A DNA stretch of 64,000 bases. Source: an uncultured virus (IMG/VR IMGVR_UViG_3300042879_004844). Taxonomy: Duplodnaviria > Heunggongvirae > Uroviricota > Caudoviricetes. The notes beneath the pieces are model-generated. The model searched no databases. It was not told the origin of the DNA and worked only from the letters and a program-made list of their open reading frames with translations. Position 1 is the stretch's first letter. Every line of letters begins with the position of its first letter. Position numbers and translations under genes: made by a program. The stretch lies in the IMG/VR virus record IMGVR_UViG_3300042879_004844. The stretch is one strand, 5' to 3'. Of the stretch, positions 9,120 through 50,163 are shown piece after piece.

Positions 9120-9958
9120 AGAACCTCGTCCAGCGCCGACGTGTGCATGCCATAGACCCCGTGGCCGACATGGAGGGCGTGGAGCATCGTGTCGACGTGC
9201 GGCTGGAATCCGCATTCTTTTGCTCTTGCGCAGAAGGCAATGTCCTCGCCGCGTCCGTCGTTCTCTGGCTGAAAGAAGTTGAAGGGCATCTCGGGATTGG
9301 TCGGATTGAGCTTTGGAAACTTGGTCTGCATCGTCTCAAAGACCCGCCGGTGGATCAGAAGACAGCCAGTCCCGATCCAGTCGCAGGGCATTGTGCCATC
9401 GTGGAACGAGGCCGCCCTCGCCCGGTAGGTCTGATCGAGCGCCAGACTGTTGACGGCGCGTCCCCGGGGATGCCTGGTAAAATAGGTGGCTCCGACAATA
9501 TCCGCACCGTGGCCGATGAGCCGGTGCGCGACGTGCAGCGCCGTGGGAGCCGTGGGATACGAATCTGGCAGTCGGCACATCGCACGAAGGAAATCTGGGC
9601 GTCCGATCGGAGGAATCATGTCATCGTCGAGAAACAGGATCCACTGGGCCTGGGTCGCGAGAAACTTCATGGCGAGCTCGTTGCGGGCGTGGTAGATCAT
9701 CGCGTCGCCGACCTGCATGTCGAACCGGACTTTCTCCTTGCCGAGATCGAGCGCAATCGCGAGAAGACACCAGGCCGTGGCCGGGTTGGTCTGCTTGTAG
9801 CACGGAAAGCCGACAAACAGATCCCTGCCCAGCCACTCGGCCTCCTGCTTCCAGCCCAGCGGAGCCTGGGTCTGGATGACAGTCGTGGGCCCGAGATCGA
9901 GATCGTCGGGGTCGATCCCGTCGATTCGTCCGGCATTGGCCATACCGGTGTGGCTCAT
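9116..9958 (-). CDS. GT2-like glycosyltransferase
   Basis: IYHARNEL, ILFLDDDM, GTGCLLIHRRVFE, GEDIAFC and HVG motifs. Confidence 0.8.
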   Translation of the reverse strand: MSHTGMANAGRIDGIDPDDLDLGPTTVIQTQAPLGWKQEAEWLGRDLFVGFPCYKQTNPATAWCLLAIALDLGKEKVRFDMQVGDAMIYHARNELAMKFLATQAQWILFLDDDMIPPIGRPDFLRAMCRLPDSYPTAPTALHVAHRLIGHGADIVGATYFTRHPRGRAVNSLALDQTYRARAASFHDGTMPCDWIGTGCLLIHRRVFETMQTKFPKLNPTNPEMPFNFFQPENDGRGEDIAFCARAKECGFQPHVDTMLHALHVGHGVYGMHTSALDEVL

Positions 9959-23728: not shown

Positions 23729-24875
23729 TCACACGTCACGAGGCCACTCGCGCATCAGTCCGTCAAGGCTGAAGCCGCTGCAGATCTGCCCCGGCTACGA
23801 GTCCGACGACACGCCGTCTGCGGCAGCCGCTCGCGGAACCACGCTGCATGAGGTCATGGACACCGGCAAGATTCCTGCCACGCTGACAGACGAGGACCGC
23901 GAGGTCGCAGAGCAGACGCTCGCCCTGCTCGCCGACGCCGAGAGTCAGTCACCTTATGAGCCTCTGAAGGAGGTCGAGCTCGACTTTCGACCCCTCAAGT
24001 TCCGTGACTTCGACAAGGGGCATGCCGACCGGGTCATCGTGCTCGAGGCAGACGCCGACCACGAGCCGGTCTCTGTCGAGCTGATCGACTTCAAGTTTGG
24101 CCGCTGGGAGGTCGACCATGTGTCAGAGAACATCCAGTTCCGGGCCTACGCCCTCGGTCTGTTCATCCTGTTTCCGACCATCGAGAAGATCCGAGTCCGC
24201 CTGATTCAGCCGGCCCTGAAGGTCGACGACACGCACCTTTTCACCCGCAAGAAGGACTATGAGGTGATCGTGTCGCAGGTCGGAGCAATTGTTCGTCGCC
24301 GCCACCGGTGGCTGGAGACACAGGACAACGACATGCTGCGTCCGCATCCAGACATCTGTGGCTTCTGCGCCCGCCAGGCCAGCTGCTCGGCGTGGCAGCG
24401 CTACATGGTCAAGCTCGCCAACGACGCAGATCTGTTTGGCCACGAGATCGCGCCTCTCACGAGCCTCGAGTCGCCCGAGACCGCCGACCCAGAGGAGGTC
24501 GTCAGGGCGTTTCGCTGGATCAAGCCCATGGAGGACTATCTCAAGAAGTTCAAGCGTTTCGTGCTGGCAGTCCATGACGCGGGCCGACTGTCCGAGGGAG
24601 TCACAATCGTCGAGAAGTCTGGGGACACCTCAATCGTCGATCCCATCGCCGCGGCGAAGCTCTTGGAGTCTGAATTTGGCGTCACGTTTGACGAATTCTT
24701 GTCGGCCTGCGATGTCTCGGTCACGAAGATCAAGCAGCTCGTGGGTCAGCACGCAAAGACCGGAGAAAAGGGCGGCATGCAGTCGCTCGCGGTCGACCGG
24801 CTCCACGAGACCGGACTAATCCAGCACGGCGCCAGAGTGCGCTATGCACAACTCAGCAGGGGGAAAAAATCATGA
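23712..24875 (+). CDS. PD-(D/E)XK exonuclease (DUF2800/Cas4-like)
   Basis: HSRISPS..CPG, GTTLH, GHAD...IDFKFG, QFRAYALG and CGFCARQASC motifs. Confidence 0.85.
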   Translation: MNSQVDHTSRGHSRISPSRLKPLQICPGYESDDTPSAAAARGTTLHEVMDTGKIPATLTDEDREVAEQTLALLADAESQSPYEPLKEVELDFRPLKFRDFDKGHADRVIVLEADADHEPVSVELIDFKFGRWEVDHVSENIQFRAYALGLFILFPTIEKIRVRLIQPALKVDDTHLFTRKKDYEVIVSQVGAIVRRRHRWLETQDNDMLRPHPDICGFCARQASCSAWQRYMVKLANDADLFGHEIAPLTSLESPETADPEEVVRAFRWIKPMEDYLKKFKRFVLAVHDAGRLSEGVTIVEKSGDTSIVDPIAAAKLLESEFGVTFDEFLSACDVSVTKIKQLVGQHAKTGEKGGMQSLAVDRLHETGLIQHGARVRYAQLSRGKKS

Positions 24876-25153
24876 GCAGAGAAGAGGCAATGCAAAAATT
24901 TCACGAGGTGCTGCACGAGATGCTGCCAGAACTGGGAGTCATCACCGAGGACACCGACATGCTCGACGACCTCGGTCTGCTCGATCTCGACCTCATCGAG
25001 GTGCAGCTCATGCTCGAGGAAAAATTTTCGATCCAGCTCGACGACGCGGACACTGATGCCATTGGCATCGGCAACTACCGAGTCGGCGACTGGCTCGACA
25101 GGATCATGACGATCCGAACACAGCAAGAACAACAAACCAAGGAAACCAAATAA
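24872..25153 (+). CDS. Acyl-carrier-protein-like protein lacking the pantetheine serine
   Basis: ITEDTDMLDDLGLLDLDLIEVQLMLEEKFSIQLDD aligns by eye with ACP [20 protein letters not shown], with DSL replaced by LDL. Confidence 0.7.
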   Translation: MSREEAMQKFHEVLHEMLPELGVITEDTDMLDDLGLLDLDLIEVQLMLEEKFSIQLDDADTDAIGIGNYRVGDWLDRIMTIRTQQEQQTKETK

Positions 25154-26163: not shown

Positions 26164-26877
26164 ATGACACCCGCGCTGGCAGACCGCGGCCAAAACGTCT
26201 GCCCCACTTTCATGCTTCTTCCGCATCTTCCATTTCATGTCCACCGTGTCCTCGTGACCGACTGCGAGTTCAAGAAGAACCGCCAGCCGATCGGGGTCAT
26301 CTACAGGTTTCTCGCGAACCTCACCGATGTCGCGACGATTCCCCGTCTCGACGTCACCAATGTCATCATCGGGGGACCGACGACCAGGTCTGAGCCATGG
26401 ATCTGGCGGGCCGCCGCCGAGAATCCGGCCGTCTGTGTCTCTGTCGAGGAGACGTCCGACGCCGGCGCGACTTCTCTCGAGGCCGAGGCCCGCAAGGCCT
26501 GGCAGTCGATGGCCGAAGAGTTTCAGCGCCGCGGACACTGGATGTCGCTCATTGGACTCCATGAGGATATCGTCATGCGGGCCGCCGAGCCGTTCCATCT
26601 GCGCGCCATCGAGATCCGCACGATGCATGACGACATGCTTGCTCGCATGTTCGCGACCGGCTCTGCCGAGATCGCCAGGGTCGCGTCGATGCTGCACTCG
26701 ATCGAAGAAAAACAGCAGGACCGCGAGCCAGAGTTCAAGACCACCCTGCAGAGGTTCATGTGGCCCGTCGTCGATGAGCTTCCAGACTGGGCCCAGAAGA
26801 GATATGACGAGGCACTCGCCGGCGGATACACAGTCCTGCAGAGCCGCTTCGCGCCACAGGAGGAGATGAGCGAATGA
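26164..26877 (+). CDS. Hypothetical protein
   Basis: ATG at 26164; coupled to the polymerase. Confidence 0.6.
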   Translation: MTPALADRGQNVCPTFMLLPHLPFHVHRVLVTDCEFKKNRQPIGVIYRFLANLTDVATIPRLDVTNVIIGGPTTRSEPWIWRAAAENPAVCVSVEETSDAGATSLEAEARKAWQSMAEEFQRRGHWMSLIGLHEDIVMRAAEPFHLRAIEIRTMHDDMLARMFATGSAEIARVASMLHSIEEKQQDREPEFKTTLQRFMWPVVDELPDWAQKRYDEALAGGYTVLQSRFAPQEEMSE

Positions 26878-28643
26878 CCAGAGATCACGTCGCCGTCGAC
26901 TTCGAGAGCAGCTTTTTCCCCAAGAAGAAGATCGGGCTGCGCAACATGGGTGTCGACCAGTATCTCCGGCATCCCGAGGTCGAGATCTATCTCGTGGCAG
27001 TCCACGCCGAGGAGGGCTCGTTTGTCGGTCATCCCTCAGAGTTTGACTGGGAGTCGATCAATGACCGAACCTGGGTCAGCCACAACGCCGCGTTCGATGC
27101 CCGCGTCTGGCGACGCTATCAGGAACTTCATCCAGAGGTCCAGGACATCGATCCATCGGAATGGCACTGCACCGCGAACCTGTCATGCTGGCTCGGGCAT
27201 CCCAGAGATCTCAAGAAGTCCTGCTTGGCCATGTTCAACGTCGACGTGTCAAAGGATGCCCGCAAGAAGATGGAGAACAAGACATACCGCGAGCTGCGAG
27301 TCAGTCCCGACTGGCGAGAGGTTGTCGAATATGCCGAGCGAGACGCCGAGTGGTGCTGGAAGATCTGGGAGTCCCACGCGCATCTGTGGCCAGACGCCGA
27401 GAAGAAGATCAGCCTCATGACCACCCTGCAGTGTCTGCGTGGACTTCCCGCCGACCGCGAGTATCTTGACCGGTCGATCCAGACACTCGACCGCGCCTGC
27501 TGGGAGGCCAGAAACCTCCTGCCCTGGGCCAACGGCAAGGCCGAGGAGCGCGCCGTCCTTTCTCCGATCGCCGTCGCCGAGGAGTGCCGCAAGCTCGGGA
27601 TCACTCCCCCGAAGTCGCTCGCCGAGGATTCGACCGACTGCCAGCGCTGGGAAGACGAGCATCCCGAGATCCCGTGGGTGCGCGAGATGCGCCGGTATCG
27701 CAAGGCCAATCTTCTCATGACCAAGCTCATGACGATGCGTGACCGCATCCGCCCAGACGGCCGGATTGACTTCAGTCAGAAATACTGCGGAGCCCACACC
27801 AAGCGCACCAGTGGAGACCAGGGCTTCAACGTCCAGGGATTCCAGCGAGATCCTTTCGAGGGAGTCGACATGCGCCGCGCCATCCACGCGATGCACGGCG
27901 GCCAGATCGTGATCGCCGACCTGGCACAGATCGAGCCGCGCACTCTTGCCTGGCTCGTCGACGACGAGCGCAAGATCGAGATGATCAACCGCGGCATCTC
28001 AGTCTACCAGGTCCATGCGATCCAGACGCTCAACTGGAAGGGCACCAGCCTCAAGAAGGAGGATCCCAACCTCTATGCGATGTGCAAGATGCGTGTCCTT
28101 GGTCTTTCTTACGGCTGCGGCGCCGAGCGCTTCGTCGATTACTGCTGGAACCAGTATGGCCACCGAATCTCTCTCAGAGACGCCAAGCTGCAGGTCGGCG
28201 ACTTCCGCCGCAAGGAGCGACTCATCGTGGATTTCTGGAACCGCATCCAGCGCAGGTTCGAGACGTCCGTTGGCCAGGACCTCGAGATCGACCTGCCGTC
28301 ATGGAACACGATGCGCTACCGCGACGTCCGCCGCGACAAGGGGCAGCTCACCGCCACCCTGGCGACCGGCCGGGTCAACCGCATGTGGGGAAGTCTTGGA
28401 GTGGAAAACATCATCCAGGCGACGGCCCGCGACTGCTTCTACGAGAAGCTTCTCAAGATCGAGGAGGCCGGAATCCCGACTCTCTTCGCCGTGCACGACG
28501 AGGTCGTGACCGACGAGATTCCCGCCGACCAGGTCGACGACGCCCTCGAGACCGTCAGAGAGATCATGGCCCAGGAATGTGAATGGATGCCAGGAATCGC
28601 TCTCGACTCGGAGGCCCACGCGAGTCCGCACTATCTCAAATGA
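26874..28643 (+). CDS. polA: Family A DNA polymerase with 3'-5' exonuclease
   Basis: VDFES, HNAAFD, YAERD exonuclease motifs; ADLAQIEPR (A), KMRVLGLSYG (B), VHDE (C). Confidence 0.92.
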   Translation: MTRDHVAVDFESSFFPKKKIGLRNMGVDQYLRHPEVEIYLVAVHAEEGSFVGHPSEFDWESINDRTWVSHNAAFDARVWRRYQELHPEVQDIDPSEWHCTANLSCWLGHPRDLKKSCLAMFNVDVSKDARKKMENKTYRELRVSPDWREVVEYAERDAEWCWKIWESHAHLWPDAEKKISLMTTLQCLRGLPADREYLDRSIQTLDRACWEARNLLPWANGKAEERAVLSPIAVAEECRKLGITPPKSLAEDSTDCQRWEDEHPEIPWVREMRRYRKANLLMTKLMTMRDRIRPDGRIDFSQKYCGAHTKRTSGDQGFNVQGFQRDPFEGVDMRRAIHAMHGGQIVIADLAQIEPRTLAWLVDDERKIEMINRGISVYQVHAIQTLNWKGTSLKKEDPNLYAMCKMRVLGLSYGCGAERFVDYCWNQYGHRISLRDAKLQVGDFRRKERLIVDFWNRIQRRFETSVGQDLEIDLPSWNTMRYRDVRRDKGQLTATLATGRVNRMWGSLGVENIIQATARDCFYEKLLKIEEAGIPTLFAVHDEVVTDEIPADQVDDALETVREIMAQECEWMPGIALDSEAHASPHYLK

Positions 28644-28822
28644 ACCCAAACCACAACACCAAGAAGTCACCCGACATCGATGAGGTCAACATGCGCGACG
28701 TGCTTGTCATGTTCTGCGCCGCCGGAATCCTGTCGGGCAAGATCAGCGTCAACCCAACCAAGGCCATCGATCTCGCGATCGAGGCGGCCGACCACTACCT
28801 CGAGAAGAGGGCCCAGTCATGA
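28640..28822 (+). CDS. Small phage protein
   Basis: ATGA-coupled; MRD...AAGIL...AIEAADHYLEKR pattern. Confidence 0.55.
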   Translation: MNPNHNTKKSPDIDEVNMRDVLVMFCAAGILSGKISVNPTKAIDLAIEAADHYLEKRAQS

Positions 28823-29310
28823 CCGAGCCAAGATCACTCCCAGATCCGCTGCCGCACTTCACCGTCATGGCCGTGCCCTATGATCCGATCACCCGAATGG
28901 TTGCGATGATGTGGCGCGGCGACCGCGTCCGCTCTGCCAAGAACTGCCTGTCGACCCCGGCGGGACTTCTTGAGCATGGCGAACCGTTCGAGGAGGGTCT
29001 TCTTCGTGAGCTCCGCGAGGAGATGGCGATCGAGCCAGACAACTGCTTCCGTGTCGAGTTTCAGACGATCTACCGCAATGACAATGGGGATGGTCTGGAC
29101 TGGGTGATCGGTGTATGGTCTGTCGCCGCCCGTGATCTCCAGCTCGTCGCCCGCAACGTCGAGCCCGACAAGCACGACTACCTTGTCTTCATGTCACTCG
29201 ATGATCTCGCCTCGCCCAATCCCATGCTTGACGGAAAGCCGGCGATGTTCGCGAGCTCTCTTCAGCCAGTTCTCAGGACCGTCGCCAAGCGCCTGATCCA
29301 GACCCTATGA
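28819..29310 (+). CDS. Nudix hydrolase
   Basis: Nudix box GLLEHGEPFEEGLLRELREEMAI. Confidence 0.88.
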   Translation: MTEPRSLPDPLPHFTVMAVPYDPITRMVAMMWRGDRVRSAKNCLSTPAGLLEHGEPFEEGLLRELREEMAIEPDNCFRVEFQTIYRNDNGDGLDWVIGVWSVAARDLQLVARNVEPDKHDYLVFMSLDDLASPNPMLDGKPAMFASSLQPVLRTVAKRLIQTL

Positions 29311-29993
29311 AGCGCCACCCGATCATTGTCCTTGAGGGACCCGATGCCGTCGGCAAGACGACGTGGGGACGCGAATACATGCGCCAGACCGGGGCCCGCT
29401 ACCTGCATCTTCCGCTGCGCAAGAGAATGTATGAGCATCAGGCGATGTCTCTCGCCCTGGCAGTCCACTGGTCGATCGAGAAGCCCGTCTTGATCGACAG
29501 ACACTGGCCCTCGGAGCAGCTGTATGCCGCCGCCTACCGTGGCGGGTCACCGATCTCTGCCGAGGCCGCCGTTCTCGATCGGGTCATGTCGTGTCTCGGA
29601 GTGACCTATGTCGTCTGTCTGCTCTCGAGTCCCGAACGGATGTTTGAGTCGCTGCGTCGCTCCCGCGAGGAACGTCATGAGATGTATGAGCCAGACGATC
29701 GCTACCGCGACCTGGTCTGCTGCTATTTTGACTGGTGGCACGGAACCGACCACACCACGACCAATCTCGGCCACTGCGAGACACTACGTGGATTCGGCAA
29801 CGCTCGTCCCCTGATGGCACACCTCTATGACTACGAGCAGATGGGACAGACGTCTCATGACATGTCCATGCACGTCCAGGACGTCCAGGACATTGCCTCG
29901 GCCATGCTCGAGGCGACTGACTTCAACGTGCATGCCGAGGACCTCGTGAAAGATCGCGTGCTTCTTCTCAACGAACTGAATCTCATCAAATGA
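29307..29993 (+). CDS. Thymidylate-kinase-like dNMP kinase
   Basis: IIVLEGPDAVGKTT P-loop and LIDRHWPSEQLY motif. Confidence 0.85.
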   Translation: MKRHPIIVLEGPDAVGKTTWGREYMRQTGARYLHLPLRKRMYEHQAMSLALAVHWSIEKPVLIDRHWPSEQLYAAAYRGGSPISAEAAVLDRVMSCLGVTYVVCLLSSPERMFESLRRSREERHEMYEPDDRYRDLVCCYFDWWHGTDHTTTNLGHCETLRGFGNARPLMAHLYDYEQMGQTSHDMSMHVQDVQDIASAMLEATDFNVHAEDLVKDRVLLLNELNLIK

Positions 29994-30847
29994 ACAACGA
30001 CAAGATCCCAAAGACCGCCACCGAGGCGTGGCTTCAGCTCATCGCAGACGTGTCTCTCAACGGCCGTCGATACAGTCCACGCGGCATGCCGGTCCGCGAG
30101 ATCATCAACAACACGGTGGCAGTCGACATGGCGTTTCCGGTCGTTCTGACAAAGAAGCGCCGGCTGAGCTACCGCTTCATGGCGGCCGAGGCCTGGTGGA
30201 TTCTTGCCGGCCGCCGCGACGTCGAATCGATCGGACGATACTGCTCGGCGATCAAGAAGTTTTCCGACGACGGGGAGACATTCTTTGGGGCCTACGGACC
30301 CAAGATCGCGCGGCAGGTCGAATACGTCGTGAACACGCTCAAGAGAGACCGCGACACGCGCCAGGCAGTTCTCACGATATGGAGAGAGAATCCGCCGCAC
30401 ACGAAGGACGTGCCCTGCACGGTGGCCGTCCAGTGGCTGATCCGCGACGGGCTGCTCCACTGCATCGACACGATGCGTTCAAGTGACGTCTGGCTCGGGT
30501 TTCCGTATGATGTCTTCAACTTCTCGATGCTGTCGTGGCACATTCTCGAGGCGCTGCGCGACGAGGGCATGGACCTCCAGCTCGGCACCCTGCATCTCAA
30601 CGCCGGATCTCATCACATCTACGAGAAGGATCTCGAGACCCTTTCCGGCTGGCACAACCACGACTGGTCAGAGGGACATGACTTTGATGCCGTCGCTGGT
30701 CATCGAATTGAGCGCGGCTTTGTCCACGGCTACCTTGCCGCGATCATCGGCGAGTATTCCGTCACCCCGAATCTCAACGAGCCTCATGGATTTTTTAAGT
30801 CCTTTGAGGATCGTCTCCTGAACACAAACAACCAACCCACAAAATAA
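29990..30847 (+). CDS. Thymidylate synthase homologue, dCMP (hydroxy)methylase-type
   Basis: GAYGP, DRDTRQA, catalytic PCT, MRSSDVWLGFPYD and HIYE motifs; Asp at the ThyA Asn177 position. Confidence 0.85.
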   Translation: MNNDKIPKTATEAWLQLIADVSLNGRRYSPRGMPVREIINNTVAVDMAFPVVLTKKRRLSYRFMAAEAWWILAGRRDVESIGRYCSAIKKFSDDGETFFGAYGPKIARQVEYVVNTLKRDRDTRQAVLTIWRENPPHTKDVPCTVAVQWLIRDGLLHCIDTMRSSDVWLGFPYDVFNFSMLSWHILEALRDEGMDLQLGTLHLNAGSHHIYEKDLETLSGWHNHDWSEGHDFDAVAGHRIERGFVHGYLAAIIGEYSVTPNLNEPHGFFKSFEDRLLNTNNQPTK

Positions 30848-30853
30848 AACGTC

Positions 30854-31711
30854 ATGGCAAACAAAAGAGGAAAAACCGTAGACACGACATTCTTGTCGCT
30901 CGACACCGCCGAGAAACGCGGATTCTTGCATCGCGACTACATCGCCCACTGTCTGAGATGGAGCCACATCATGCGCCGCCTGTCAGAGGGCAAGGCCTAT
31001 GCCGAGGCGACCATTCTCGACGTCGGCTGCGGCCGTGAACTCCCGATGGCAAAGACGCTCTACAGCTCTCGCTACATCCCGAAGCGCTACATTGGGATCG
31101 ACGTCGGGCCGATCCTCGACGAGGCGATCGAGGTGTTCCACTCGGGCAAGTTTCCGCTCGAGGCATACGAGAAGACCGACATCTGCGACGCGACCGACGA
31201 GTTTGCCAACCAGGTCGACATCATCGTGTGTCTCGAGGTCCTTGAACACGTCGAACCGGAGCACATGCTCCGCATGCTTGACTCGTTCAGAGAGATGCTG
31301 AAAAAGGACGGGCGCGCCTTCATCTCGACTCCCTGCTGGGACGTCAAGACCTGTGCCGACAACCACGTCAACGAGATGCGTCACGAGACTCTCGGGGCCG
31401 TCTTCGAGCGCGAGGGCTGGATGATCCAGGCCGTCCACGGGACATTCGCCTCGATCAAGGACTACAAGGAAGAATTCACGCCGGCCCAGCGCGAGATCTT
31501 CGAGCGTCTTCGCGGCTACTACGACACCAACTACCTGGCCACGATCTTTGCCCCGATGTTCCCGCGGCAGTCCCGCAACTGCATCTGGGAGATCGTCGAT
31601 TCTGGGAAGAATCCCGAGCTCGTGGAGTCCTATGAGTGTCAGTATCCCGAGATCACGGAGGTTCCGGAGCCCTGGGGGTCGTCAGAAAACTGGAAAGAAC
31701 TCGCTCGGTGA
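30854..31711 (+). CDS. Class I SAM-dependent methyltransferase
   Basis: ILDVGCG, YIGID, CLEVLEHV and ISTP motifs. Confidence 0.85.
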   Translation: MANKRGKTVDTTFLSLDTAEKRGFLHRDYIAHCLRWSHIMRRLSEGKAYAEATILDVGCGRELPMAKTLYSSRYIPKRYIGIDVGPILDEAIEVFHSGKFPLEAYEKTDICDATDEFANQVDIIVCLEVLEHVEPEHMLRMLDSFREMLKKDGRAFISTPCWDVKTCADNHVNEMRHETLGAVFEREGWMIQAVHGTFASIKDYKEEFTPAQREIFERLRGYYDTNYLATIFAPMFPRQSRNCIWEIVDSGKNPELVESYECQYPEITEVPEPWGSSENWKELAR

Positions 31712-31759
31712 AGTCGACATTTCACAGCGACAGCCAGCCAACCTACAATCGAGCACGTC

Positions 31760-32245
31760 ATGAGCCTCGCCCACACCACCGTCATCTTCCTGCAGAACCC
31801 ATGGTTTCCGCCTGAGACAGACCCCGCGATTCTGCAGTCCTACATGCACGACGTCCAGTTCCGCCGCGAACTTCTCGCGACGACGATGACCGGACGTCGC
31901 CTTCTTGGCCTGTTCGGCCCGATGTTTCACGACATCTGGTGGGACAACGCGCATCCTCAGCCCCTGCTCGGCGACCACCGGGCCGCCGGAGATCCCGACC
32001 ACGAGCACATGCTGCGAGTCATTCTCGAGCAGCGCCCGAAGACCATCGGGGTTCTCGGAAGGCGCGCGGCCGCGGGCATTGACCGGCTTCGACAGGAGAT
32101 GCCGCTGTTTTTCTGGGATGACCAGTTTCTGGGAGCCCGCATCGTGGAAGCCCGGCATCCCAATGCCATGGGCTGCACCACCGAGGAACTCGAGAAGTTC
32201 AGCAACATTGTCATCAACCGCGCCATCGGCTGTGTCGGCGTATGA
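31760..32245 (+). CDS. Uracil-DNA-glycosylase-superfamily-like protein
   Basis: IFLQNP, TGRRL, RPKTIGVLGRRA and RHPNA motifs in UDG order. Confidence 0.6.
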   Translation: MSLAHTTVIFLQNPWFPPETDPAILQSYMHDVQFRRELLATTMTGRRLLGLFGPMFHDIWWDNAHPQPLLGDHRAAGDPDHEHMLRVILEQRPKTIGVLGRRAAAGIDRLRQEMPLFFWDDQFLGARIVEARHPNAMGCTTEELEKFSNIVINRAIGCVGV

Positions 32246-34356
32246 AGTTCCCGTGCATCACGAATCTCGTCACGCAGGACGTGGAGATGCTCAGGCCCTG
32301 GGAGTTTGTTTCCGAGGTGCCCAAGTTCAAGACCAAGCGACTCTACAAGGAATGGCTCGCGCAGGACACGACCGAGCACTGCCTCTATTGCGGCTTCACG
32401 GGGCTCATCCCGAGCCTGCGGCTGCACAAGGACGCAAATCCGGTCCATTCCATCCACGCCCTGGTGGCCGACTACGATTCCGAGATTGACATCTCTGACC
32501 TCGAGTCGATGCTGGGCAGGTGCGATGCCACTCCGCCGACCTGGGCCCACAGGACACCATCCGGGGGAGCCAGACTGGTGTGGATTCTGGACCGCCCGGT
32601 TCTTGTCGCGTCGGGATCTGTCCTGATCAAGACGCTCAGGGCGGCGGCCAAGTCGCTCGACCTGCGTGGCCTCCTGCCCGGCTTCGACTTCGACTCGGCC
32701 TTTCTCAACCCGACCATCTACTACGACGTCGGCCGCGACTGGATGGAGATCGATGGGGCGCCGCCCCTCGATGCCGCGGTCGTCGAGGGCTGGATGCTGA
32801 AGTCATCCGAGTCAGTCAAGTGGACCGGCGACTCGATCCCGCTCGACGTTCTCGAGAACGAGCTCCATCAGCGCTTTCCCGGTCGCTGGAACGGACCCTT
32901 TGTCGAGGGATCTCGAGGAGTGCGGTTCTGGGACCCGATGGCAGACAACCCGACTGCCGCGATCGTCAGGCCAACCGGGATGCAGTGCTTCACCGGCTCG
33001 TCTGGCTTCGTGCCGTGGTCGAAGATCTTCGGAAGTCGCTTCGTTGAGCAGTTCACGTCGAGCAGGCTCAGCGAGGTGATCGACGGAGTCTGGTATGACG
33101 GCAAGAACTACTGGTATCAGTCGGCCGACGGCAAGTGGGAGGCGCGTGCCGAGAGGGAGATGGGTCGCTGGCTCAAGGTCGAGCAGGGGCTGGCCGCCGA
33201 GAAAGAAAAGAACGCGACCTTCTCAGAAGTCGAGCACGCGCTCTTCACGGTCGACCAGCACAGGCGCGTCGTGGGAGCGGCCCCGTTCGTCTACCTGCCG
33301 CCGGGCATGATCGAGTTCATGGGCAAGCGAGTCCTCAACACGGCCAGGGTCATGCCGCTCAGGCCGGCCGAATCGGTCGCCGACTGGGGAGACCGCTTTC
33401 CGTGGCTCAGTGGATTTCTTGAGAAGTTCTTTGACAACGACGAGCAGCTGCTCTATTTTCTGTCGTGGCTCAAGAGGTTCTACTGCTCGGCGCTCGACGG
33501 GGCCCCGAAGCAGGGACAGGCCCTGTTCATCGCCGGTGAGCCCGGGCAGGGCAAGACCCTGCTGTCCAACAGGATCGTCTCTGGTCTGGTCGGAGGTCAC
33601 CAGGACGCGACCCAGTTTCTTCTGGGAGCATCCTCGTTCAACAAGGAGCTGTTCCATCACGGCCTGTGGTCAGTCGACGACGCGACGCCCGGCGACAGCT
33701 CGGCAGACCACAAGAAGTTCTCGAGCCTGCTCAAGAAGGTCACGGCCAACACGACCTTTGAATACCATGCCAAGTTCCAGGATTCGGTCATGGTCGAGTG
33801 GACTGGCCGCGTGATCATCACCGGAAACCTCGACGCCGAGTCGCTCCGCATCCTGCCTGATCTCGACACGTCGATCCTTGACAAGATCATGCTCTTCAGG
33901 GCCGCCACCGTCGACAAGATGTTTCCAGAGAGGCACGTCCTCCAGGACACGATCATCCGAGAACTTCCCTATCTCGCCGCGTGGCTGGTCGAGTTTGACG
34001 TGCCAGAGGAATGCATCTCAGAACAGGCGCGATACGGAATCAGGGGATACCACCATCCAGAACTTCGGCTCGCGGCCGGCGAGAGCACGGACGCGGCGGT
34101 GCTCGACGAGGTGCTGTCGGCCTTCATGCTCGAGAGATCTCGCAACGGCGAGAATGAGGCGTGGTCTGGAACCGCGACAGCTCTCATGCAGGACATCTTC
34201 CTCTATGACAGCCTGCGCAACATCGTCGGCCGCAACTCGGCGAGGTGGTTCGGCATCCAGCTCGGCAAGCTCGAGGCCCAGGGCCGCGGGGTGGTCTCGA
34301 TCCGAGTCGGCGGCAAGAAGTCCTACACGATCTTCCCCGAGGGGGCCAAAAAGTAG
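32242..34356 (+). CDS. Primase-helicase
   Basis: N-terminal VADYD and TPSGGARLVW primase-like motifs; C-terminal SF3-like GEPGQGKT, VDD and ITGN. Confidence 0.8.
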   Translation: MKFPCITNLVTQDVEMLRPWEFVSEVPKFKTKRLYKEWLAQDTTEHCLYCGFTGLIPSLRLHKDANPVHSIHALVADYDSEIDISDLESMLGRCDATPPTWAHRTPSGGARLVWILDRPVLVASGSVLIKTLRAAAKSLDLRGLLPGFDFDSAFLNPTIYYDVGRDWMEIDGAPPLDAAVVEGWMLKSSESVKWTGDSIPLDVLENELHQRFPGRWNGPFVEGSRGVRFWDPMADNPTAAIVRPTGMQCFTGSSGFVPWSKIFGSRFVEQFTSSRLSEVIDGVWYDGKNYWYQSADGKWEARAEREMGRWLKVEQGLAAEKEKNATFSEVEHALFTVDQHRRVVGAAPFVYLPPGMIEFMGKRVLNTARVMPLRPAESVADWGDRFPWLSGFLEKFFDNDEQLLYFLSWLKRFYCSALDGAPKQGQALFIAGEPGQGKTLLSNRIVSGLVGGHQDATQFLLGASSFNKELFHHGLWSVDDATPGDSSADHKKFSSLLKKVTANTTFEYHAKFQDSVMVEWTGRVIITGNLDAESLRILPDLDTSILDKIMLFRAATVDKMFPERHVLQDTIIRELPYLAAWLVEFDVPEECISEQARYGIRGYHHPELRLAAGESTDAAVLDEVLSAFMLERSRNGENEAWSGTATALMQDIFLYDSLRNIVGRNSARWFGIQLGKLEAQGRGVVSIRVGGKKSYTIFPEGAKK

Positions 34357-36334: not shown

Positions 36335-36463
36335 ATGGACCCCGACATTCTCATCATCCTGCGGGCGTTCATCCAGATCGCCTGGAACTTCTGGCCAGCC
36401 CTGGTGTTCATTGCACTGGGGCTGGCCGTGGTCCTGGCCTGGGAACGGGCAGACCGAGACTAG
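36335..36463 (+). CDS. 42-aa membrane peptide
   Basis: MDPDILIILRAFIQIAWNFWPALVFIALGLAVVLAWERADRD; stop overlaps the convergent giant gene. Confidence 0.5.
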   Translation: MDPDILIILRAFIQIAWNFWPALVFIALGLAVVLAWERADRD

Positions 36464-39400
36464 CCGCCGCGGATCACGTCTCGCATCGTCTCACGAATGG
36501 CGCGCTTCCACTCTTCCTCATTGGGAAAGTCCTTCCGGGTGATGCCCATGCGATCTCGCAGATAGGCGATGGTCTTGCGGCGGTCCTCGGAATAGAGACC
36601 ATAGTCAAAGTTGCCGTCGTCATCGGTGTAGCGGGGGTTGTAGCCGGGCATGAATCTGGCCCCCGACAGAGGAGCCTGATCAGACACCGGGGCCGCGACT
36701 CCGGCAAGACTCTGGTCATCCTGGGATGATCCGGATGGGCCCGCGGGCATGAATCTGGCCGCCATGGAACGTCCGCGGTCATCCTGAATCTCATAGTCAT
36801 GATCGAGTCGCAGTCTCGTGAGGGTGTCCCTCTGGGATGAGTTCGGAGTCCGTCCGCCAATGTTGACGCGACTGCCCTGCCGGACAACTCGCAGATAACC
36901 CTCATTCTCGGCGGCCATCTGGGCCTTTTCGTCGGACTCGACGTTGGGATAAAACGACCGCGCGGCGATGCGGTGTTCGGATCCCGGATCCACGTTCACG
37001 ATCTCGCCATCTGGAGTGATCCAGGCCTTTTGGCGAAGAGACGGGACATCCTCATCGGGATCATAGAAGCCCGCCGGCATGAATCTGGCAGAACTTCCGT
37101 AGGGTTCTATCCGATCCTCTTCCAGCTTGAGCTTCTTCTCGATGGCCGTGTCTTTCAGCTCTTTGAGCATCTTCGGAGTCGGACGTCCCTCATACCAGAG
37201 AGTCCTGCCCATCCTGCGGACGCGCACGAAGCGGCGATCCTTGAGATCGTCGTAGTTCACTCGGCGGAGATCAAACAGATCCTCAGGAAAAATGTCGAGA
37301 TGGTCGTCCACGTTGACCCAGCCCCTCGGGGAGAGCCACGCCGATTCGCCCTTGAGCCGGTCCTCGACCCTGGCATTGGCATCCTTCACGATCCGATCCA
37401 CGAGTGAGGCCCGGCTTGCCGGCATGAACTTGACTCCAGATGTGTCAAATTTGTCGTCCGTGTCCCAATCCCAAACGGCCTTGATTGCCAAGGATGGTAT
37501 TTTTCCAGTATAGACAAAATTTCCATCCCCAAAAATAGAGTCTTCATCTGATGAAGCTTGTGACATTTGGCTCCGGATATAGTCAAACACCTTATTCCAG
37601 TCTTTAGATTTTGTGGTTCTATAATGATAGATCCCGGCTTGTTCTGGATCAGGAAACATGCGTTTTGGGTCCAGTTTGGATGTATCTACCGAAATGTGGA
37701 ACGTGTTTTTATCGTCGACGTCCCATCCCCCATCAAAATCTGGATCCAGGGCAAAATAAGTGTTTCCCTTGAAACCTTGTGACAAGATTTTTTTTGCGTT
37801 TTTGCGCGTTGTCCCATGACTAACAATGAAACCTTTTTTCACTCGCTCTTGAAACGCATCAAAAATTTTTTGATTTTCTTCAGAAAGTTCGGATCTATTT
37901 ACGGGCATGAACTTGGCCCCGGGCCCCGTGCCGCCACCGCCCTTGTCCGGTGGATTGTTCTCAAGAAACTCGCTGATCTTGTCGTAGAACGCGTCGAGCA
38001 TGTCCGAGGGCTCGCGATACTCGCCCGGGTCGAGCATGAAATAGCCGACCGAGTCCTCCATGCCGGGCTCGACGTAGATGTTGACCCTGGTTCCTCCGAG
38101 TCCAGAGGCGATCGGCTCAAACGTGTATTTGCCGAGTGACGTCGTTTCGTCGTTCATCAGGGCCTCGGCGGCCTCGTTGATCATCTGCGTTGTGATTGAC
38201 TTGGTCTTGGATGCCGGCGCAGACGTGGCTCCGAGAGTCGACAGGGCCTCGTAGATGGCCGCCTCGAGGTCCATGGGTTCCATGTTCTGCGATCCCTGGA
38301 TCGGGATGATGCCGAGAACTTCATTGTCCTTGTTGTAAGCAGAGATTGCCACAGATCCAGACTGCGTGACGCCCTTGGCAAACTTCTTGCCGCCGATCTC
38401 GACGACCTCGATGTCTGGGTCCATCAACTGGGCCGCCGCCTGCATCGCGAAGTCCTGCTCCGGAGTCAGGAGCGACTGGGCCTCGGGTGTCTTCCAGTCC
38501 TTCATCCAGTCAAGCGCGAAATAGTCGTCGTAGATTCCCTTAGGACCGGTCATGGGAGTCGCCGTCTCTGGCTCAAACGGAATGGTGTTTGACACGGCAA
38601 CGCCATTAAGTTTTACGACGGCCGCGGTGATTTCACCAGAGTCGTCCTCGATGCCCTCGAGCTCCCATGTGTTTCCGTCGATCGTGGTTGGCTCGTCGAG
38701 CAGCGCGTCATTGAGAAATTCCATGGCCTGTTTCTGGGCCGCGGTCTCGTCTTTTTTCTCCGGGCTTTTTTGATTCAGATACTTCGCGGCCTCTCGGATG
38801 ACGTAGGCAAACGGCCCGATCGCGAAATTCTTGTCGTCCTTGATGAACTGATACATTCCGTCCTCCGCGACCTGCTTGACGATCTTGACCTCGTCTCCCT
38901 GGCCGTTCGTGAGAACCACGGACTTCCACTTGCCATCCTTGGTGGCCTGTGCATCGTCAAGAGTCACTCCCAGATTGTCGACAAATTTCATCAGTGCGTC
39001 GGAGTCGGCAAGAATCACGGGATCCGCCTCATTCTCCGAGGGTTTCAGATACGGGTGGCTGGGATTCGCGGCATCGAAGATTGCCAGGGCCGTCTCAGAG
39101 ACAGACGGGAGGACTCCGTTGTCGGCCCAGTATTGCATGATGGCTGTCTTGTTGCCGGGCGCCCACTCGGTCACAAACGGATCGCCCTGCTCGTCCTCGT
39201 ATGGATTTGTCACGGCCGTGCCCGAGTTCGCCGTGAAATACACGTGGTTGGTCCCGCCGATCTCACCCTCTTCAAACGGTCCGACCATGGCGGCCGCCTC
39301 GGCGACGGTCATGAGGGTGTCGTCTGCCTTGGCATATCCGACTGCCGGAGAATCCAGGGTCAGCCCCTCTTCCTCGACCTCTTCGATCATGTCGGCCGCC

Positions 39401-42400
39401 TTGCGCTTCTCAAGCTTGTCGGATGCCCACTTGCCGACGTCGTAGAGATACTTGCCGAGGGCCTCGACATCGCCCGCCCCGATTGAGTCAGTGATCATGG
39501 CCTTGGCCGGAGCGCCGGCCCCGCTGAGCAGCAGGGTCTCGACATACTCGGCCGAGGCGTCGATGTCCGAGGGCGGGAGATTTGCCAGGTTGACATCAAC
39601 CCACTCGAGATCCTGGAGATTCTTGATCAGCTGGTTGACTCTGGCTTTGGCCGAGACCGGCAGGACCGCAATGAGGTCTGAGACTTTCTGGCTCGGTGCC
39701 GGCATCTGCGGCTTCATCTCGGCCTTCAGATTCTGCTGCATCCAGTCGGCGGTGTTGCCATAGCCGTTCATCTTGGCACGCATGAGCGCATACTCGGCGA
39801 GCCAGTCGACGATGTCACGCTTCTTGCCGCCTGGAATCGTGGCCGTGGTCAGAAGATTGCCCTCAGACACAGAGTCTCCCTGATAGACCTTGAGAGTCGC
39901 GGCCTGTCCAGACCCACCGGCGTTGACAACCGTGACGTCGCCGAGCTTCAGGCCGTTAAATCCGTTGAACAGCAACCCCGTGACAAACTCATTGAGATTT
40001 GAGGGAGTCGACTTGTCAAGCTTGGGCTGGAACACATTTCCTATGAACCATTGGTCTGACCACGATGACGTTTTGGCCGCGCTAGGAGCATTGAGCGCGC
40101 TCTTCGCGATGTCCTTGTTGATCATCTCGGTCGCGAGCTCGATGCTGCCCACCATCGGCTTTCCTTTTGTGGTCATCGCTATGCTGTAGCTGTTGACCGG
40201 CTTGCCGTTCTTGTAGAGAGTCAGCGTGTTCAGTTCGGAATTCTTGGAAACAAGCTTCACCGTCCATTCTCCCTCTCCGAAGCCGTCTCCGACCACCTTG
40301 GAACTTGCCGCCATGTTGACCATGTTCTTGGTTGCCTTCAGGACCCCAGAGGATGAAGACTTCTCGGAGAGACCAGTCTCCATCTTCGTCGGAAGCGAAG
40401 GTGTCTTGCCAGTGACGCGCGGGTCCCGGCCCTCGACGAGCAGCATGCGGAAGAGCTTGACGGCGTCGGTCCTGGCGACCCCGAGATCTCCAAAATGATC
40501 GTCGAGGATGATCCCAATGTGCGCGTTCTGGTCCTTCTTGATCGCCTTCCAGTCGTCGTTCTTTCCGCCATTCTTGCGAAAGATTCCCTCGGCCGCGTTG
40601 GCAATGTTTTCAAACGGGGCCTCGCGACGAACTCCGCTCGATGACTTGCGATAGTAATCTGAGACCAGGTCCTTGAGAAGATCAGTGAACTGGGACGGGT
40701 CCATGTTTTCGACCAGCGTGGGCGGAAGCTGCTCGATGACCTTGGCTTCGAGATCCTGTGTGAGGGGCGCATCGGCGCGCATGTCGGCAAACCAGGCGTC
40801 GGCCAGTTTCCCCATGGTGCCGCTCACGAATCCGCGGAGTTCTCGAGGATTTGCCACATTGGCCTTGAAGTCAAGCATCTTGGCGATCCAGCCGTATCCC
40901 TCGACCCCGAGATAGTATTTCTTGAGCTTGTTGAAGACCGTGTTCGTGTTGTGCTGCAGGTCGTAGGCCCGGTCGATCTCCTGGAACATGGCGTTGTAGG
41001 CGCCCGGGTCGCGGAACTCGTTGGTCTCGATGATCTGCATGCGGCCGGTCTCTGGATCGGTCGCGACGGCGCGGACTCGCTCGGTGGAATATGTCGGATC
41101 TGACATCTGGGCGAGATGGGCCGCGATGTCGCCCCATGGGTTTCCGCCGTAGCTCGACGACCAGTCGCCGCGACGATACAGCTGCTCGGCAAAGCGCGCC
41201 ACGTCGGCGATGCCCATGCCCAGTTTCTTGCGAGCATTTTCCATCGCGACAAAAGAGGCCCGGTAGCCCTCGCTCTCTCCCTTGTAGCGGCGCGGTCCCT
41301 TCTCTTTCTTGAGATCTGGCATGCCGGCACCCTGGATCGCATACTGCCGCATGTATTCCTGATAGAATTCGGTCTCGGCGAGATCGGCTGGCTGTCTGCG
41401 CGGAATGGCATGGCGAAGTTCGGCCGCGATCGCAAAATGCAGTGCCTTCTGGATCTTGCTGTGGAGAGACGGGATGAGCGTCTGCTTGGCCTCATCGAGG
41501 GCGTCCTGATATTTCTCGGCGCGCACTCCGGCATAGCGTCCGGTCGGGTCTGCCGAGGGAGCATACATGGTGGCCTCGCCGCCAAACTTGCCCATGCTCC
41601 ATCCGGTCGGCGGGGTCGTGATCATGGCGTTAAGCATGTAGAAGTCGGCCATGGTCTTCTTCGGATCGTCGGGAAGCGACGTGTAGCGGATGCCGGGAAG
41701 GAACCGAGGCATGGCGCCGCCGACAATGTCGTTCTCGACCGGAGCATCCTGAAACTGGTCGAGACGAAGCGACCGTGCCTCGTTCTCTGGGAAAAAATTG
41801 ACGAGCATCTTGCCGTAGTCGACAGGAAGCTTCTGGGCGTTGCTGATCTGCATCTGGTTGATGCGGTCCATGCGAGCCGACATGATCAGGCGGTCGGCCG
41901 AGTCCTTCCCGCGTCGCGCCGGAAGCGTGGTCCTCGATGGATTCAGCGACTCAGTCTCCTTGGTGAACAGATTGAAAAAGTCGTTGATGCGGTTCTTTTT
42001 CTGCATCGCGATGTCGGGATCGACGTCAAGTCCGGTCTGTCCAGCCAGTCCCCGGTTGTGGTTGTCGAGCACCCGGGTCACGTCCTCCCAGAACTTGCCG
42101 AGATCGCGTCCCCAGAGATTGAGATTCTCTGGCCGCTTCTGTGACCAGAGATTCATCTTGTCGAACATGCGGCTGACCGAGATGGTCGTGGCCAGAAAGT
42201 TGCCCTGCTTGCTGAACTGATACCCAATCGGCACGACGTCGCGGATGCGCGGACTGAGGGCCCGATACCTTCCGCCGCGAAGGGCCGCCTGGTATTCCAT
42301 CAGGATGCGAGTCCCGTCGCGTTTCTGGAGCACCTCGTTGAAGGCGGCTATGTTCTTCTTGAGAGACGGGGGAATCACGCTGTTGGGCAGTGCCATGACG

Positions 42401-49332: not shown

Positions 49333-50163
49333 CTATGCAGAATCCTCGCGGCTGAGTCCGCAGTAGGCAAAGTTGGGCTCGACCCAGGGCACCCGGTGTG
49401 ACACGTTGTTCACGTCGATGCCATACTTGGGACACCTGACAAAGGAGGCCGAGGTCGGGTCGCAGCACTTCGTGCAGGTGTGAAAATAGTCGGAATTCGT
49501 CGAGTTCTTCTTGAGAACCTGCCGGTTCTTGACGTCATAGCGCGTCTCGTCGTGCGGCACCGAGTGCCTCTCATGGTATTCAAAGACGTCATCGTCGGTC
49601 CATTCCCGGATCGGATAGAGGATCGTCCCGGCATTCTCGAGCTGGAGTCGGTCGACCTGAAGTGGCACACGGCCGACGGTCGGGTCGTCGTCCGACGACT
49701 TGTGGCCCATGACCATGCAGTCCCACGGAAAGTTGTAGGTCCCAAGCGGACGAGAAAGAAACGTCTCGAGGGCGCAGAGAAACGGATGCCCCTCCTCTGG
49801 GACGATCGTCCCACGGGCCACCATGATGTATTCTGGCTTCTGGGCCGCCGAGCTGACCTGGTAGCATTCCATGATGTCGACCCGGCTCTCCTTCCCTCGA
49901 CAGAGACTGACGGCAGACGGGGCATAGTCGTGGGCCTCGAGATTCCACTCGTCGATGATCCTGTTGATGAAGCGCAGCTTCTCGGGCATCCAGGGCTCTC
50001 GCCAGCAAACGACTGGAAGTTCTCTCTTCATGAGAAACTTCAGCATGTGCAGGACCACCATTGAGTCCTTGCCGCCCGACCAGAGAATGACCGGGTTCCT
50101 TGCCGTCTTCAGCATGCGGTCAAGAAAGTCGACCGCGACCTCGACCTTTCGGTCGAGCGTCAT
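49333..50163 (-). CDS. PAPS-reductase-family (PP-loop) protein
   Basis: LWSGGKDSMV, GHKSSD, YPIREWTDDDVFEY and Cys-rich CTKCC...C...C tail. Confidence 0.8.
   Translation of the reverse strand: MTLDRKVEVAVDFLDRMLKTARNPVILWSGGKDSMVVLHMLKFLMKRELPVVCWREPWMPEKLRFINRIIDEWNLEAHDYAPSAVSLCRGKESRVDIMECYQVSSAAQKPEYIMVARGTIVPEEGHPFLCALETFLSRPLGTYNFPWDCMVMGHKSSDDDPTVGRVPLQVDRLQLENAGTILYPIREWTDDDVFEYHERHSVPHDETRYDVKNRQVLKKNSTNSDYFHTCTKCCDPTSASFVRCPKYGIDVNNVSHRVPWVEPNFAYCGLSREDSA

What the first reader, a model, noticed from the sequence alone, without database searches (positions are those of the whole stretch)
28819..32245. Candidate modified-cytosine pathway: Nudix, dNMP kinase, Asp-type TS homologue, SAM methyltransferase, UDG-like
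Seen in sequence: five contiguous genes between polymerase and primase. The TS homologue reads PCT...RSSDVWLGFPYD where E. coli ThyA reads PCH...RSCDVFLGLPFN. Established: Asn at this position selects dUMP, while Asp selects dCMP as in T4 dCMP hydroxymethylase. Inference: the phage makes 5-methyl- or 5-hydroxymethyl-dCMP, phosphorylates it with its own kinase and removes a competing dNTP with the Nudix enzyme. The class I methyltransferase may add a further group, giving an unusual base.
Basis: partly seen in the sequence, partly recalled or inferred. Interest (0 to 1): 0.75.

Follow-up and report, generated by a model that had tools for sequence, protein, structure and literature searches.

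The report
Phage hydroxymethylcytosine pathway with capping methyltransferase
A lake phage, like many relatives including the cultured phage AXL3, appears to build its DNA with hydroxymethylcytosine and carries an unstudied methyltransferase where related phages carry sugar- or carbamoyl-adding enzymes, so it may make a methylated cytosine not yet described in DNA.

Summary
The five genes and the Asp are real. The thymidylate synthase (TS) homologue has Asp at ThyA positions 177 and 143, keeps Asp169 and has no DHFR partner. That predicts a dCMP hydroxymethylase, not a methylase. Making 5hmC this way is known (T4, MetaGPA). The new part is the SAM methyltransferase. It lies beside such a TS in 74 of 80 loci; the other six are cut short. 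It never occurs with alpha-glucosyltransferase, carbamoyltransferase or a PLP-enzyme trio, which sister phages carry instead (36 versus 13 groups, none with both). It has an invariant Hen1-like Glu/Glu/His/His set. My best reading is that it O-methylates 5hmC to 5-methoxymethylcytosine, a base my literature searches did not find in phage DNA. No chemistry was shown, and N4-methylation remains possible. Cultured phage AXL3 has the cassette and restriction-resistant DNA, so LC-MS can decide. The Nudix and UDG-fold genes are accessory. This scan reached a similar reading earlier on other DNA (e1-6193695).

The parts
   Evidence: PF00383 E 2.5e-15, phrog_174 E 1.5e-35; start read; a homologue lies in 78 of 84 TS-found loci
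26874..28643 (+). Family A DNA polymerase (context; would incorporate the modified dNTP)
   Evidence: PF00476 E 4e-16
28819..29310 (+). Nudix hydrolase, inferred dCTPase; most relatives carry a MazG-like pyrophosphatase instead
   Evidence: PF00293 E 2e-9; intact Nudix box; Nudix cluster in 24 loci; AXL3 and PW916 have an NTP pyrophosphohydrolase in the cassette
29307..29993 (+). P-loop dNMP kinase, inferred 5hm-dCMP kinase
   Evidence: phrog_761 E 5e-7; homologues lie beside the TS in relatives
29990..30847 (+). ThyA-fold enzyme, predicted dCMP 5-hydroxymethylase (D140 = ThyA 143, C143 = 146, T144 = 147, R124 = 126, S164 = 167, D166 = 169, D174 = 177)
   Evidence: best solved relative MilA CMP hydroxymethylase E 2e-23, against 4e-12 for the best true TS; residue census; alignment with Xp12 and PaMx74
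30854..31711 (+). Class I SAM-dependent methyltransferase of a phage-restricted family; candidate 5hmC O-methyltransferase
   Evidence: PF13489; model pLDDT 93.8; 1450 homologues; E128, E131, H132, H171, E174 in 136 of 136 loci; linkage and exclusion
31760..32245 (+). Small UDG-superfamily-fold protein, accessory; may remove deaminated bases (inference)
   Evidence: model pLDDT 87; fold searches; 12 homologues found
32242..34356 (+). Primase-helicase (context)
   Evidence: phrog_1829 E 6e-8

Best explanation
The phage replaces C in its DNA with a capped 5-hydroxymethylcytosine. The Nudix enzyme turns dCTP into dCMP. The ThyA-fold enzyme makes 5hm-dCMP, the kinase phosphorylates it and the polymerase incorporates it. 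The deaminase diverts some cytosine nucleotide to dUMP for thymidine synthesis. The SAM methyltransferase then methylates the 5-hydroxymethyl oxygen, with a metal held by E128/E131/H132/H171, giving 5-methoxymethylcytosine. It thus does the job that glucosyl- or carbamoyltransferases do in sister phages: shielding 5hmC from modification-dependent nucleases. Shown here: genes, residues, linkage and exclusion. From established rules: dCMP specificity and hydroxymethyl product. Inferred: the Nudix and kinase substrates, the methyl acceptor, and whether methylation happens on the nucleotide or on DNA. My odds by step: modified C 0.93, hydroxymethyl 0.85, methyltransferase acts on that base 0.8, on the oxygen 0.5 overall.
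For: D177 and D143 with D169 kept, in 150 of 150 best representatives. The published rule is N177D = dCMP, L143D/E = hydroxymethyl, D169N = 5-hydroxy (PMC13326640). S167 and R126 are the deoxyribose type (PMC5175136). The 5mC phages Xp12 and PaMx74 have N143 and a DHFR gene; DHFR was found in 0 of 48 records of this clade and 2 of 2 of those controls. A separate ThyX lies in 9 of 50 records, and a second, Asn177 ThyA in 2 of 80 methyltransferase loci. The methyltransferase has a D177 TS nearby in 74 of 80 loci, 72 with D143; in all 130 loci with both they share a strand, 129 within 3 kb. In 50,697 phage records it occurs in 5, the same five that rank first for the TS. Exclusion: of 51 TS-found groups, 36 have the methyltransferase only, 13 another candidate only, 0 both, 2 neither. 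Whole records: PLP enzyme 0 of 37 against 6 of 13, alpha-glucosyltransferase 0 of 37 against 2 of 13, carbamoyltransferase 0 of 37 against 1 of 13. The swap also occurs among sister phages with the same polymerase and primase and needs 7 changes on the tree, at least 4 forced. The two best NCBIfam matches are O-methyltransferases (UbiG E 4e-12, Hen1 E 2e-5), and the ExxEH aligns with HEN1, whose Mg ligands are Glu796, Glu799, His800, His860 (PMC10781085). AXL3 DNA was cut by only 2 of 37 enzymes, both with A/T-only sites (PMC7504290).
Against: No activity or base analysis exists for any member. Two of 74 methyltransferase loci (L093, L100) have N143, as in 5mC makers; if they make 5mC there is no hydroxyl to methylate. 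Only 3 of the 13 substitute groups belong to families shown to transfer onto 5hmC (p 0.02 for these alone, uncorrected). Seven are an uncharacterised PLP trio, one is HtrL/YibB, and two are unannotated singletons whose absence elsewhere is trivial. The substitutes were picked from methyltransferase-free loci, so their presence there is by construction. Fold searches do not single out Hen1 or any O-methyltransferase: HEN1 is rank 10 at Z 16.6, among N-, C- and carboxyl methyltransferases at Z 15-18.6. UbiG also has ExxEH, and H171 = His860 was not aligned residue by residue. The AXL3 digests fit plain 5hmC or 5mC as well. In MetaGPA, Methyltransf_23 was not significantly enriched in modified contigs (27 against 1436, corrected p 1). 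The window also holds glycosyltransferase-like genes near the capsid gene.
Confidence: 0.5

Rival explanations
1. The base is 5hm-dC, but the methyltransferase methylates another atom, most plausibly N4 (N4-methyl-5hmC, same mass as the methoxymethyl base), or transfers another group from a SAM analogue.
For: Linkage and exclusion need only functional redundancy, not a shared hydroxyl. Two loci pair the enzyme with an N143 TS. Fold neighbours include N-methyltransferases and CmoM/CmoA.
Against: The best sequence-profile matches are O-methyltransferases. The invariant acidic/His set fits metal-assisted hydroxyl activation. 72 of 74 partners carry D143. No homologue appeared with the N143, DHFR-linked 5mC phages in GenBank.
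Confidence: 0.17
2. The DNA holds plain 5hmC (or 5hmC modified by another gene), and the methyltransferase acts on something else, such as an RNA end, a protein or a cofactor.
For: Hen1 and UbiG act on RNA and quinones. HTVC200P has this TS with no recognised modifier. The enzyme is acidic overall (pI 5.2). A DUF6492 / FkbM / GT-like trio lies at 7798-9958.
Against: It would not explain 74 of 80 linkage, across two distant TS clades, or zero co-occurrence with other modifiers. DUF6492 was found in 1 of 50 records by family search, and the 280-aa GT-like gene occurs in sisters with and without the methyltransferase.
Confidence: 0.17
3. The TS homologue makes 5-methyl-dCMP as in Xp12, and the deaminase converts part of it to dT.
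For: D177 alone allows it. Deaminase-linked TS homologues made 5mdC in 5 of 7 tests (bioRxiv 10.1101/2024.12.05.627091). This phage has no ThyX or second ThyA.
Against: D143 rather than N or L; 25% identity to the Xp12 enzyme; no DHFR in 48 records; partners such as alpha-glucosyltransferase and carbamoyltransferase need a hydroxyl.
Confidence: 0.1
4. It is an ordinary thymidylate-synthesis cluster (dCMP to dUMP to dTMP to dTDP), as annotated for AXL3 and PW916.
For: The published annotation; Pfam name Thymidylat_synt.
Against: N177D in all 150 representatives; best structure match is a CMP hydroxymethylase; ThyX or true ThyA coexist in relatives; AXL3 DNA resists 35 of 37 enzymes.
Confidence: 0.04

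Closest known systems
T4 5hmC pathway (gp56 dCTPase, gp42 dCMP hydroxymethylase, gp1 kinase, cd deaminase, alpha/beta-glucosyltransferases); gene roles partly recalled
   Same: Same logic and same diagnostic residues (D177, acidic 143); sister phages carry an alpha-glucosyltransferase homologue.
   Different: No T4 gp42 structure appeared among the 60 solved-structure hits shown. The dNTP pyrophosphatase is Nudix or MazG-like, the polymerase is family A, and a SAM methyltransferase replaces the glucosyltransferases.
MetaGPA 5-carbamoyloxymethylcytosine pathway (PMC8670742)
   Same: TS homologue, deaminase and pyrophosphohydrolase plus a transferase onto the 5hmC hydroxyl; one relative here (L023) has such a carbamoyltransferase with this TS clade.
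   Different: The capping enzyme here is a class I methyltransferase, which the passages and table rows I saw do not single out.
MilA CMP 5-hydroxymethylase (PDB 5b6d, 5jnh)
   Same: Closest solved relative, E 2e-23; Asp at both 143 and 177.
   Different: MilA has Ala176/Lys133 for ribose; this enzyme has Ser/Arg, the dCMP type.
Xanthomonas phage Xp12 / Pseudomonas phage PaMx74 5mC pathway
   Same: D177 TS homologue next to a deaminase.
   Different: They have N143 and P147, a DHFR gene and no homologue of this methyltransferase.
Stenotrophomonas phage AXL3 gp27-gp31 and Pseudoxanthomonas phage PW916 cassette
   Same: Methyltransferase (28-29% identical), pyrophosphohydrolase, kinase, D143/D177 TS (50-51%) and deaminase; same invariant methyltransferase residues.
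   Different: Published as thymidylate synthesis with the modification unknown; MazG-like instead of Nudix; ThyX present; no UDG-like neighbour.
Hen1 RNA 2'-O-methyltransferase and UbiG
   Same: Class I fold, ExxEH and a later conserved His; weak profile matches.
   Different: Scores far below family cut-offs (23.7 against 340 bits; 45.8 against 103); 17% identity; the context is DNA nucleotide metabolism.

Membership tests
dCMP 5-hydroxymethylase (T4 gp42 / MilA type) | ThyA fold with catalytic Cys146 | tested here: met
   C143; 150 of 150 representatives
dCMP 5-hydroxymethylase (T4 gp42 / MilA type) | Asp at ThyA 177 (cytosine selection) | tested here: met
   D174
dCMP 5-hydroxymethylase (T4 gp42 / MilA type) | Acidic residue at ThyA 143 (hydroxymethyl product) | tested here: met
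   D140; rule from PMC13326640, which calls it a correlation
dCMP 5-hydroxymethylase (T4 gp42 / MilA type) | Ser167 and Arg126 (deoxyribose preference) | tested here: met
   S164, R124
dCMP 5-hydroxymethylase (T4 gp42 / MilA type) | Forms 5hm-dCMP from dCMP and methylene-THF | not testable with these tools
   needs an enzyme or in vivo assay
Canonical thymidylate synthase ThyA | Asn177, His147, hydrophobic 143 | tested here: not met
   D, T, D; all NCBIfam TS models far below cut-off
Xp12-type dCMP methylase | Non-acidic 143 and a DHFR partner | tested here: not met
   D143; DHFR 0 of 48 records against 2 of 2 controls
5-hydroxy-dCMP synthase (RB69, DLP3) | D169N | tested here: not met
   D166 kept; 150 of 150
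Class I SAM-dependent methyltransferase | Rossmann-like fold with glycine-rich motif I and acidic residue after strand 2 | tested here: met
   D56-x-G-C-G, D83; model and fold searches
Hen1 2'-O-methyltransferase | Score above the family cut-off | tested here: not met
   TIGR04074 23.7 bits against 340
Hen1 2'-O-methyltransferase | Glu/Glu/His/His metal site | tested here: inconclusive
   E128/E131/H132 align with HEN1's ExxEH; H171 is invariant but its match to His860 is inferred; geometry not measured
Uracil-DNA glycosylase superfamily (161-aa gene) | UDG alpha/beta fold | tested here: met
   top nine rows UDG-superfamily, Z 10.8 to 7.8; Foldseek E 1.5e-3
Uracil-DNA glycosylase superfamily (161-aa gene) | Membership of a described UDG family and glycosylase activity | tested here: inconclusive
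   no profile hit; 12-15% identity; activity untested
Nudix hydrolase | GX5EX7REXXEE box | tested here: met
   substrate not testable

The most novel reading that the evidence does not exclude
A widespread group of freshwater, marine and soil phages, including cultured AXL3 and PW916, replaces cytosine with 5-methoxymethylcytosine, made by a family of metal-dependent, Hen1-like O-methyltransferases specific for 5hmC. This would be a new natural DNA base and a new route for capping 5hmC, apparently the commonest one in this TS clade.
Probability: 0.45. Interest if true: 0.82.

Novelty: new variant of a known kind. Interest (0 to 1): 0.63.

Why it matters
It would name the unknown modification of AXL3 DNA, reported in 2020 and left open in that paper. 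It would add methylation to glycosylation and carbamoylation as a way to cap 5hmC. In this sample it is the commonest partner of this TS clade (36 of 51 groups), so it may be abundant in nature. An enzyme that selectively methylates the 5hmC hydroxyl could be a reagent for mapping 5hmC. The prediction has a sharp, cheap test on a cultured phage. The first half of the pathway is not new.

Tried and rejected
Literature searches for the base found nothing relevant: 'methoxymethylcytosine' 0 papers; 'methoxymethyl + cytosine + bacteriophage + DNA modification' 0; 'phage + 5hmdCMP + methyltransferase' 1, the deaminase preprint; a four-term search with O-methyltransferase, 18 listed, none on this by title or abstract start; a last search, 1 unrelated review. 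The library lacks most subscription journals. Iyer et al. 2013 (recalled as a computational survey of DNA-modification neighbourhoods) was not held and may already note this pairing.

Fold searches of the methyltransferase gave no close structure. The PLP trio's other two proteins had no Pfam, NCBIfam or PDB match and only unnamed Atlas clusters (one protein). Two proteins that I first read as glycosyltransferases (L013, L040) could not be confirmed as such. BLAST with the Xp12 and PaMx74 DHFRs found no hit in the 164 loci held or the window; this weak test was replaced by a profile search. Palindrome avoidance does not tell modified from unmodified phages well and is not used as support. Sequencing runs: no RNA holder listed; no reads were laid. 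The whole-record search for the methyltransferase in 15 records lacking it had no distant-clade positive control. The tree is the quick one; the careful search did not finish. No complex was predicted.
Full report
Verdict. The first half is known biology. The second half is an inference from genomes and is untested.

Setting. The window is most of the genome of an uncultured tailed phage: a 95-99% identical relative is 66.6 kb and rated complete. Of 24 listed runs that hold the stretch or part of it, 23 are lake-water metagenomes. The window's own assembly is not held, so whole-genome statements rest on the window and on records G003 and G004.

The genes. Five same-strand ORFs lie between a family A polymerase and a primase, with overlapping or short junctions. 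They are a Nudix hydrolase, a dNMP kinase, a ThyA-fold enzyme, a class I methyltransferase and a 161-aa protein. The last has no profile match, but its model falls with uracil-DNA glycosylases. A homologue lies in 78 of 84 TS-found loci. Published work links such deaminases to modified-C phages: 104 of 149 in modified contigs lay near a TS, against 17 of 277 in unmodified ones (bioRxiv 10.1101/2024.12.05.627091, passages).

What the TS homologue makes. Its best solved relative is the CMP hydroxymethylase MilA (E 2e-23), well ahead of true TS (4e-12). PMC13326640 (passages) gives the rules: Asp at ThyA 177 selects dCMP, an acidic residue at 143 goes with a hydroxymethyl product, and D169N marks 5-hydroxy-dCMP synthases. 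This enzyme has D177, D143 and D169, as do all of the 150 best of 8423 representatives. Those were chosen by likeness to the query, so this shows a conserved clade, not independent origins. It has the Ser and Arg that PMC5175136 (passages) ties to deoxyribose. The 5mC phages Xp12 and PaMx74 have Asn at 143 and a DHFR gene. DHFR, which hydroxymethylation does not need, was found in 0 of 48 records of this clade and in both controls. Nine of 50 records carry a ThyX as well, and 2 of 80 methyltransferase loci carry a second, Asn177 ThyA, so the Asp enzyme is not the thymidylate source there. This phage's close relative has neither and would depend on its deaminase and the host synthase.

The methyltransferase is tied to this enzyme. 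It has 1450 homologues, its ten listed Atlas clusters are 95-100% viral, and a scan of prokaryote genomes returned three contigs. Of the 80 best of 208 viral loci found with it, 74 have a D177 TS within the flank, 72 with D143 and 2 with N143. The six without one end 74-1580 bp after the gene. Eight of the 80 are this phage's close kin. The link holds in two distant TS clades. Among 50,697 phage records the methyltransferase occurs in five, the same five that rank first for the TS.

It is exclusive with other modifiers. I grouped 158 TS-bearing loci at 85% TS identity into 91 groups. Among the 51 groups found through the TS, 36 have the methyltransferase only, 13 have another candidate only, 2 have neither (one cut short, and HTVC200P) and none has both. 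The 13 are: alpha-glucosyltransferase homologue (2), carbamoyltransferase (1), HtrL/YibB (1), a PLP-enzyme trio (7) and unannotated proteins (2). Whole-record searches agree: PLP enzyme 0 of 37 against 6 of 13, glucosyltransferase 0 of 37 against 2 of 13, carbamoyltransferase 0 of 37 against 1 of 13. The methyltransferase profile hit 0 of 15 records lacking it locally, many of them incomplete, with no distant-clade control. Pfam found no such transferase in 106 of 108 neighbour clusters scanned from methyltransferase loci (same strand, at least 140 aa; two over 700 aa left out). The swap is seen among sister phages that share polymerase, Nudix, kinase and primase: methyltransferase here and in L065, glucosyltransferase in L011 and L012, PLP trio in L009. 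The quick tree needs 7 changes for the substitutes, at least 4 forced by strong branches. Limits: I picked the substitutes from methyltransferase-free loci; only 3 of 13 belong to families shown to act on 5hmC (Fisher p 0.02 alone, 2e-10 for all 13, neither corrected for kinship); and one TS search pattern included the Asp.

What it might add. The model is a confident class I fold with no close structure. The best NCBIfam profile matches are the O-methyltransferases UbiG and Hen1, far below their cut-offs; against solved structures a lysine methyltransferase ranks first, then Hen1 and UbiG, all weak. E128, E131, H132, H171 and E174 are invariant in 136 of 136 loci, including a clade at about 28% identity. 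The first three align with HEN1's ExxEH; HEN1 binds Mg through Glu796, Glu799, His800 and His860 to methylate a hydroxyl (PMC10781085, passages). That H171 is the fourth ligand is my inference. Together with the exclusion, this points to methylation of the 5hmC hydroxyl. Against it, UbiG shares the motif, the fold search does not favour O-methyltransferases, and two loci pair the enzyme with an N143 TS. Whether it acts on the nucleotide or on DNA is open.

Cultured relatives. AXL3 and PW916 carry methyltransferase, pyrophosphohydrolase, kinase, D143/D177 TS and deaminase. Both papers read this as thymidylate synthesis (PMC7504290 and PMC9414467, passages). AXL3 DNA was cut by only 2 of 37 enzymes, both with A/T-only sites, and the modification was left unknown. 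That supports a modified C or G but does not say which.

Accessory parts. Nudix occurs in 24 loci, and a MazG-like enzyme takes its place in most others. In MetaGPA, NUDIX was enriched in modified contigs (corrected p 0.001) while Methyltransf_23 was not (PMC8670742, passages and rows of supplement 2). The UDG-fold gene was detected in 3 of 91 groups (this phage's group, L065, L097), so it is not core. A glycosyltransferase-like trio near the capsid gene (7798-9958) could in principle modify DNA, but its 280-aa member occurs in sisters with and without the methyltransferase and DUF6492 was found in 1 of 50 records; by protein search it was in both methyltransferase-bearing sisters and none of three without.

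Novelty. Five searches found no report of this base or enzyme in phage DNA. Subscription journals, bioRxiv supplements and one recalled computational survey (Iyer et al. 2013, nothing seen) were out of reach and could hold the same idea. I also read passages of PMC7653180. After I had recorded my reading, this scan's notes showed the same conclusion on another genome (e1-6193695) and a related one (e1-7003436); these are not independent evidence. I class it as a new variant of a known kind, interest 0.63: a specific, unreported base is predicted at about even odds and can be tested on a phage already in culture.

Noticed in passing
window 1-64000 (only site at 6849): GTAC occurs once against 64 expected, while CCGG, GGCC, GCGC, CGCG and GATC are not depleted. 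Among 91 groups, all 9 whose methyltransferase scores at least 458 bits on my profile avoid GTAC (observed/expected at most 0.14) and none of the other 82 falls below 0.24 (threshold chosen afterwards). They span two phage lineages. This may mark a shared host with a GTAC nuclease that tolerates modified C; RsaI partly cuts 5hmC DNA. Unexplained.
   Followed up: partly
L020:3871-6992, L044:9175-11862, L170:1585-4158: A three-gene set (phrog_13881 protein, an unannotated 320-395-aa protein, a PLP-dependent enzyme) sits with the same D143/D177 TS in 7 groups and never with the methyltransferase. It is a candidate for another undescribed 5hmC hypermodification.
   Followed up: partly
L031:10180-10926: An HtrL/YibB-family protein lies near the TS in one group of five methyltransferase-free loci; a possible 5hmC glycosyltransferase (inference).
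   Followed up: partly
L093:9140-9949, L100:10845-11627: Two clade members have Asn at ThyA 143 yet keep the methyltransferase and have no DHFR.
   Followed up: partly
L011:12191-13258, L012, L040:2942-4108, L058:5279-6595, L151: A C5 DNA-methyltransferase-like gene (PF00145) lies beside the cassette in five loci of phages predicted to have no free cytosine.
   Followed up: no
L083 (Pelagibacter phage HTVC200P, gp13-14); HTVC119P: Two cultured pelagiphages carry this TS clade. HTVC200P has D143/D177, a kinase and no recognised modifier, so it may hold plain 5hmC.
   Followed up: partly
window 7798-9958 (-): DUF6492, FkbM-type methyltransferase and GT-like genes lie between head genes; possibly virion glycosylation.
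   Followed up: partly
window 24872-25153 (+): Acyl-carrier-protein-like gene (phrog_5934, E 4e-6) in the replication operon.
   Followed up: no
window 36463-45807 (-): A 3115-aa protein with no Pfam match, probably an internal virion protein.
   Followed up: no
window 49336-50163 and 59305-59736 (-): PAPS-reductase-domain gene and GNAT acetyltransferase gene among structural genes.
   Followed up: no
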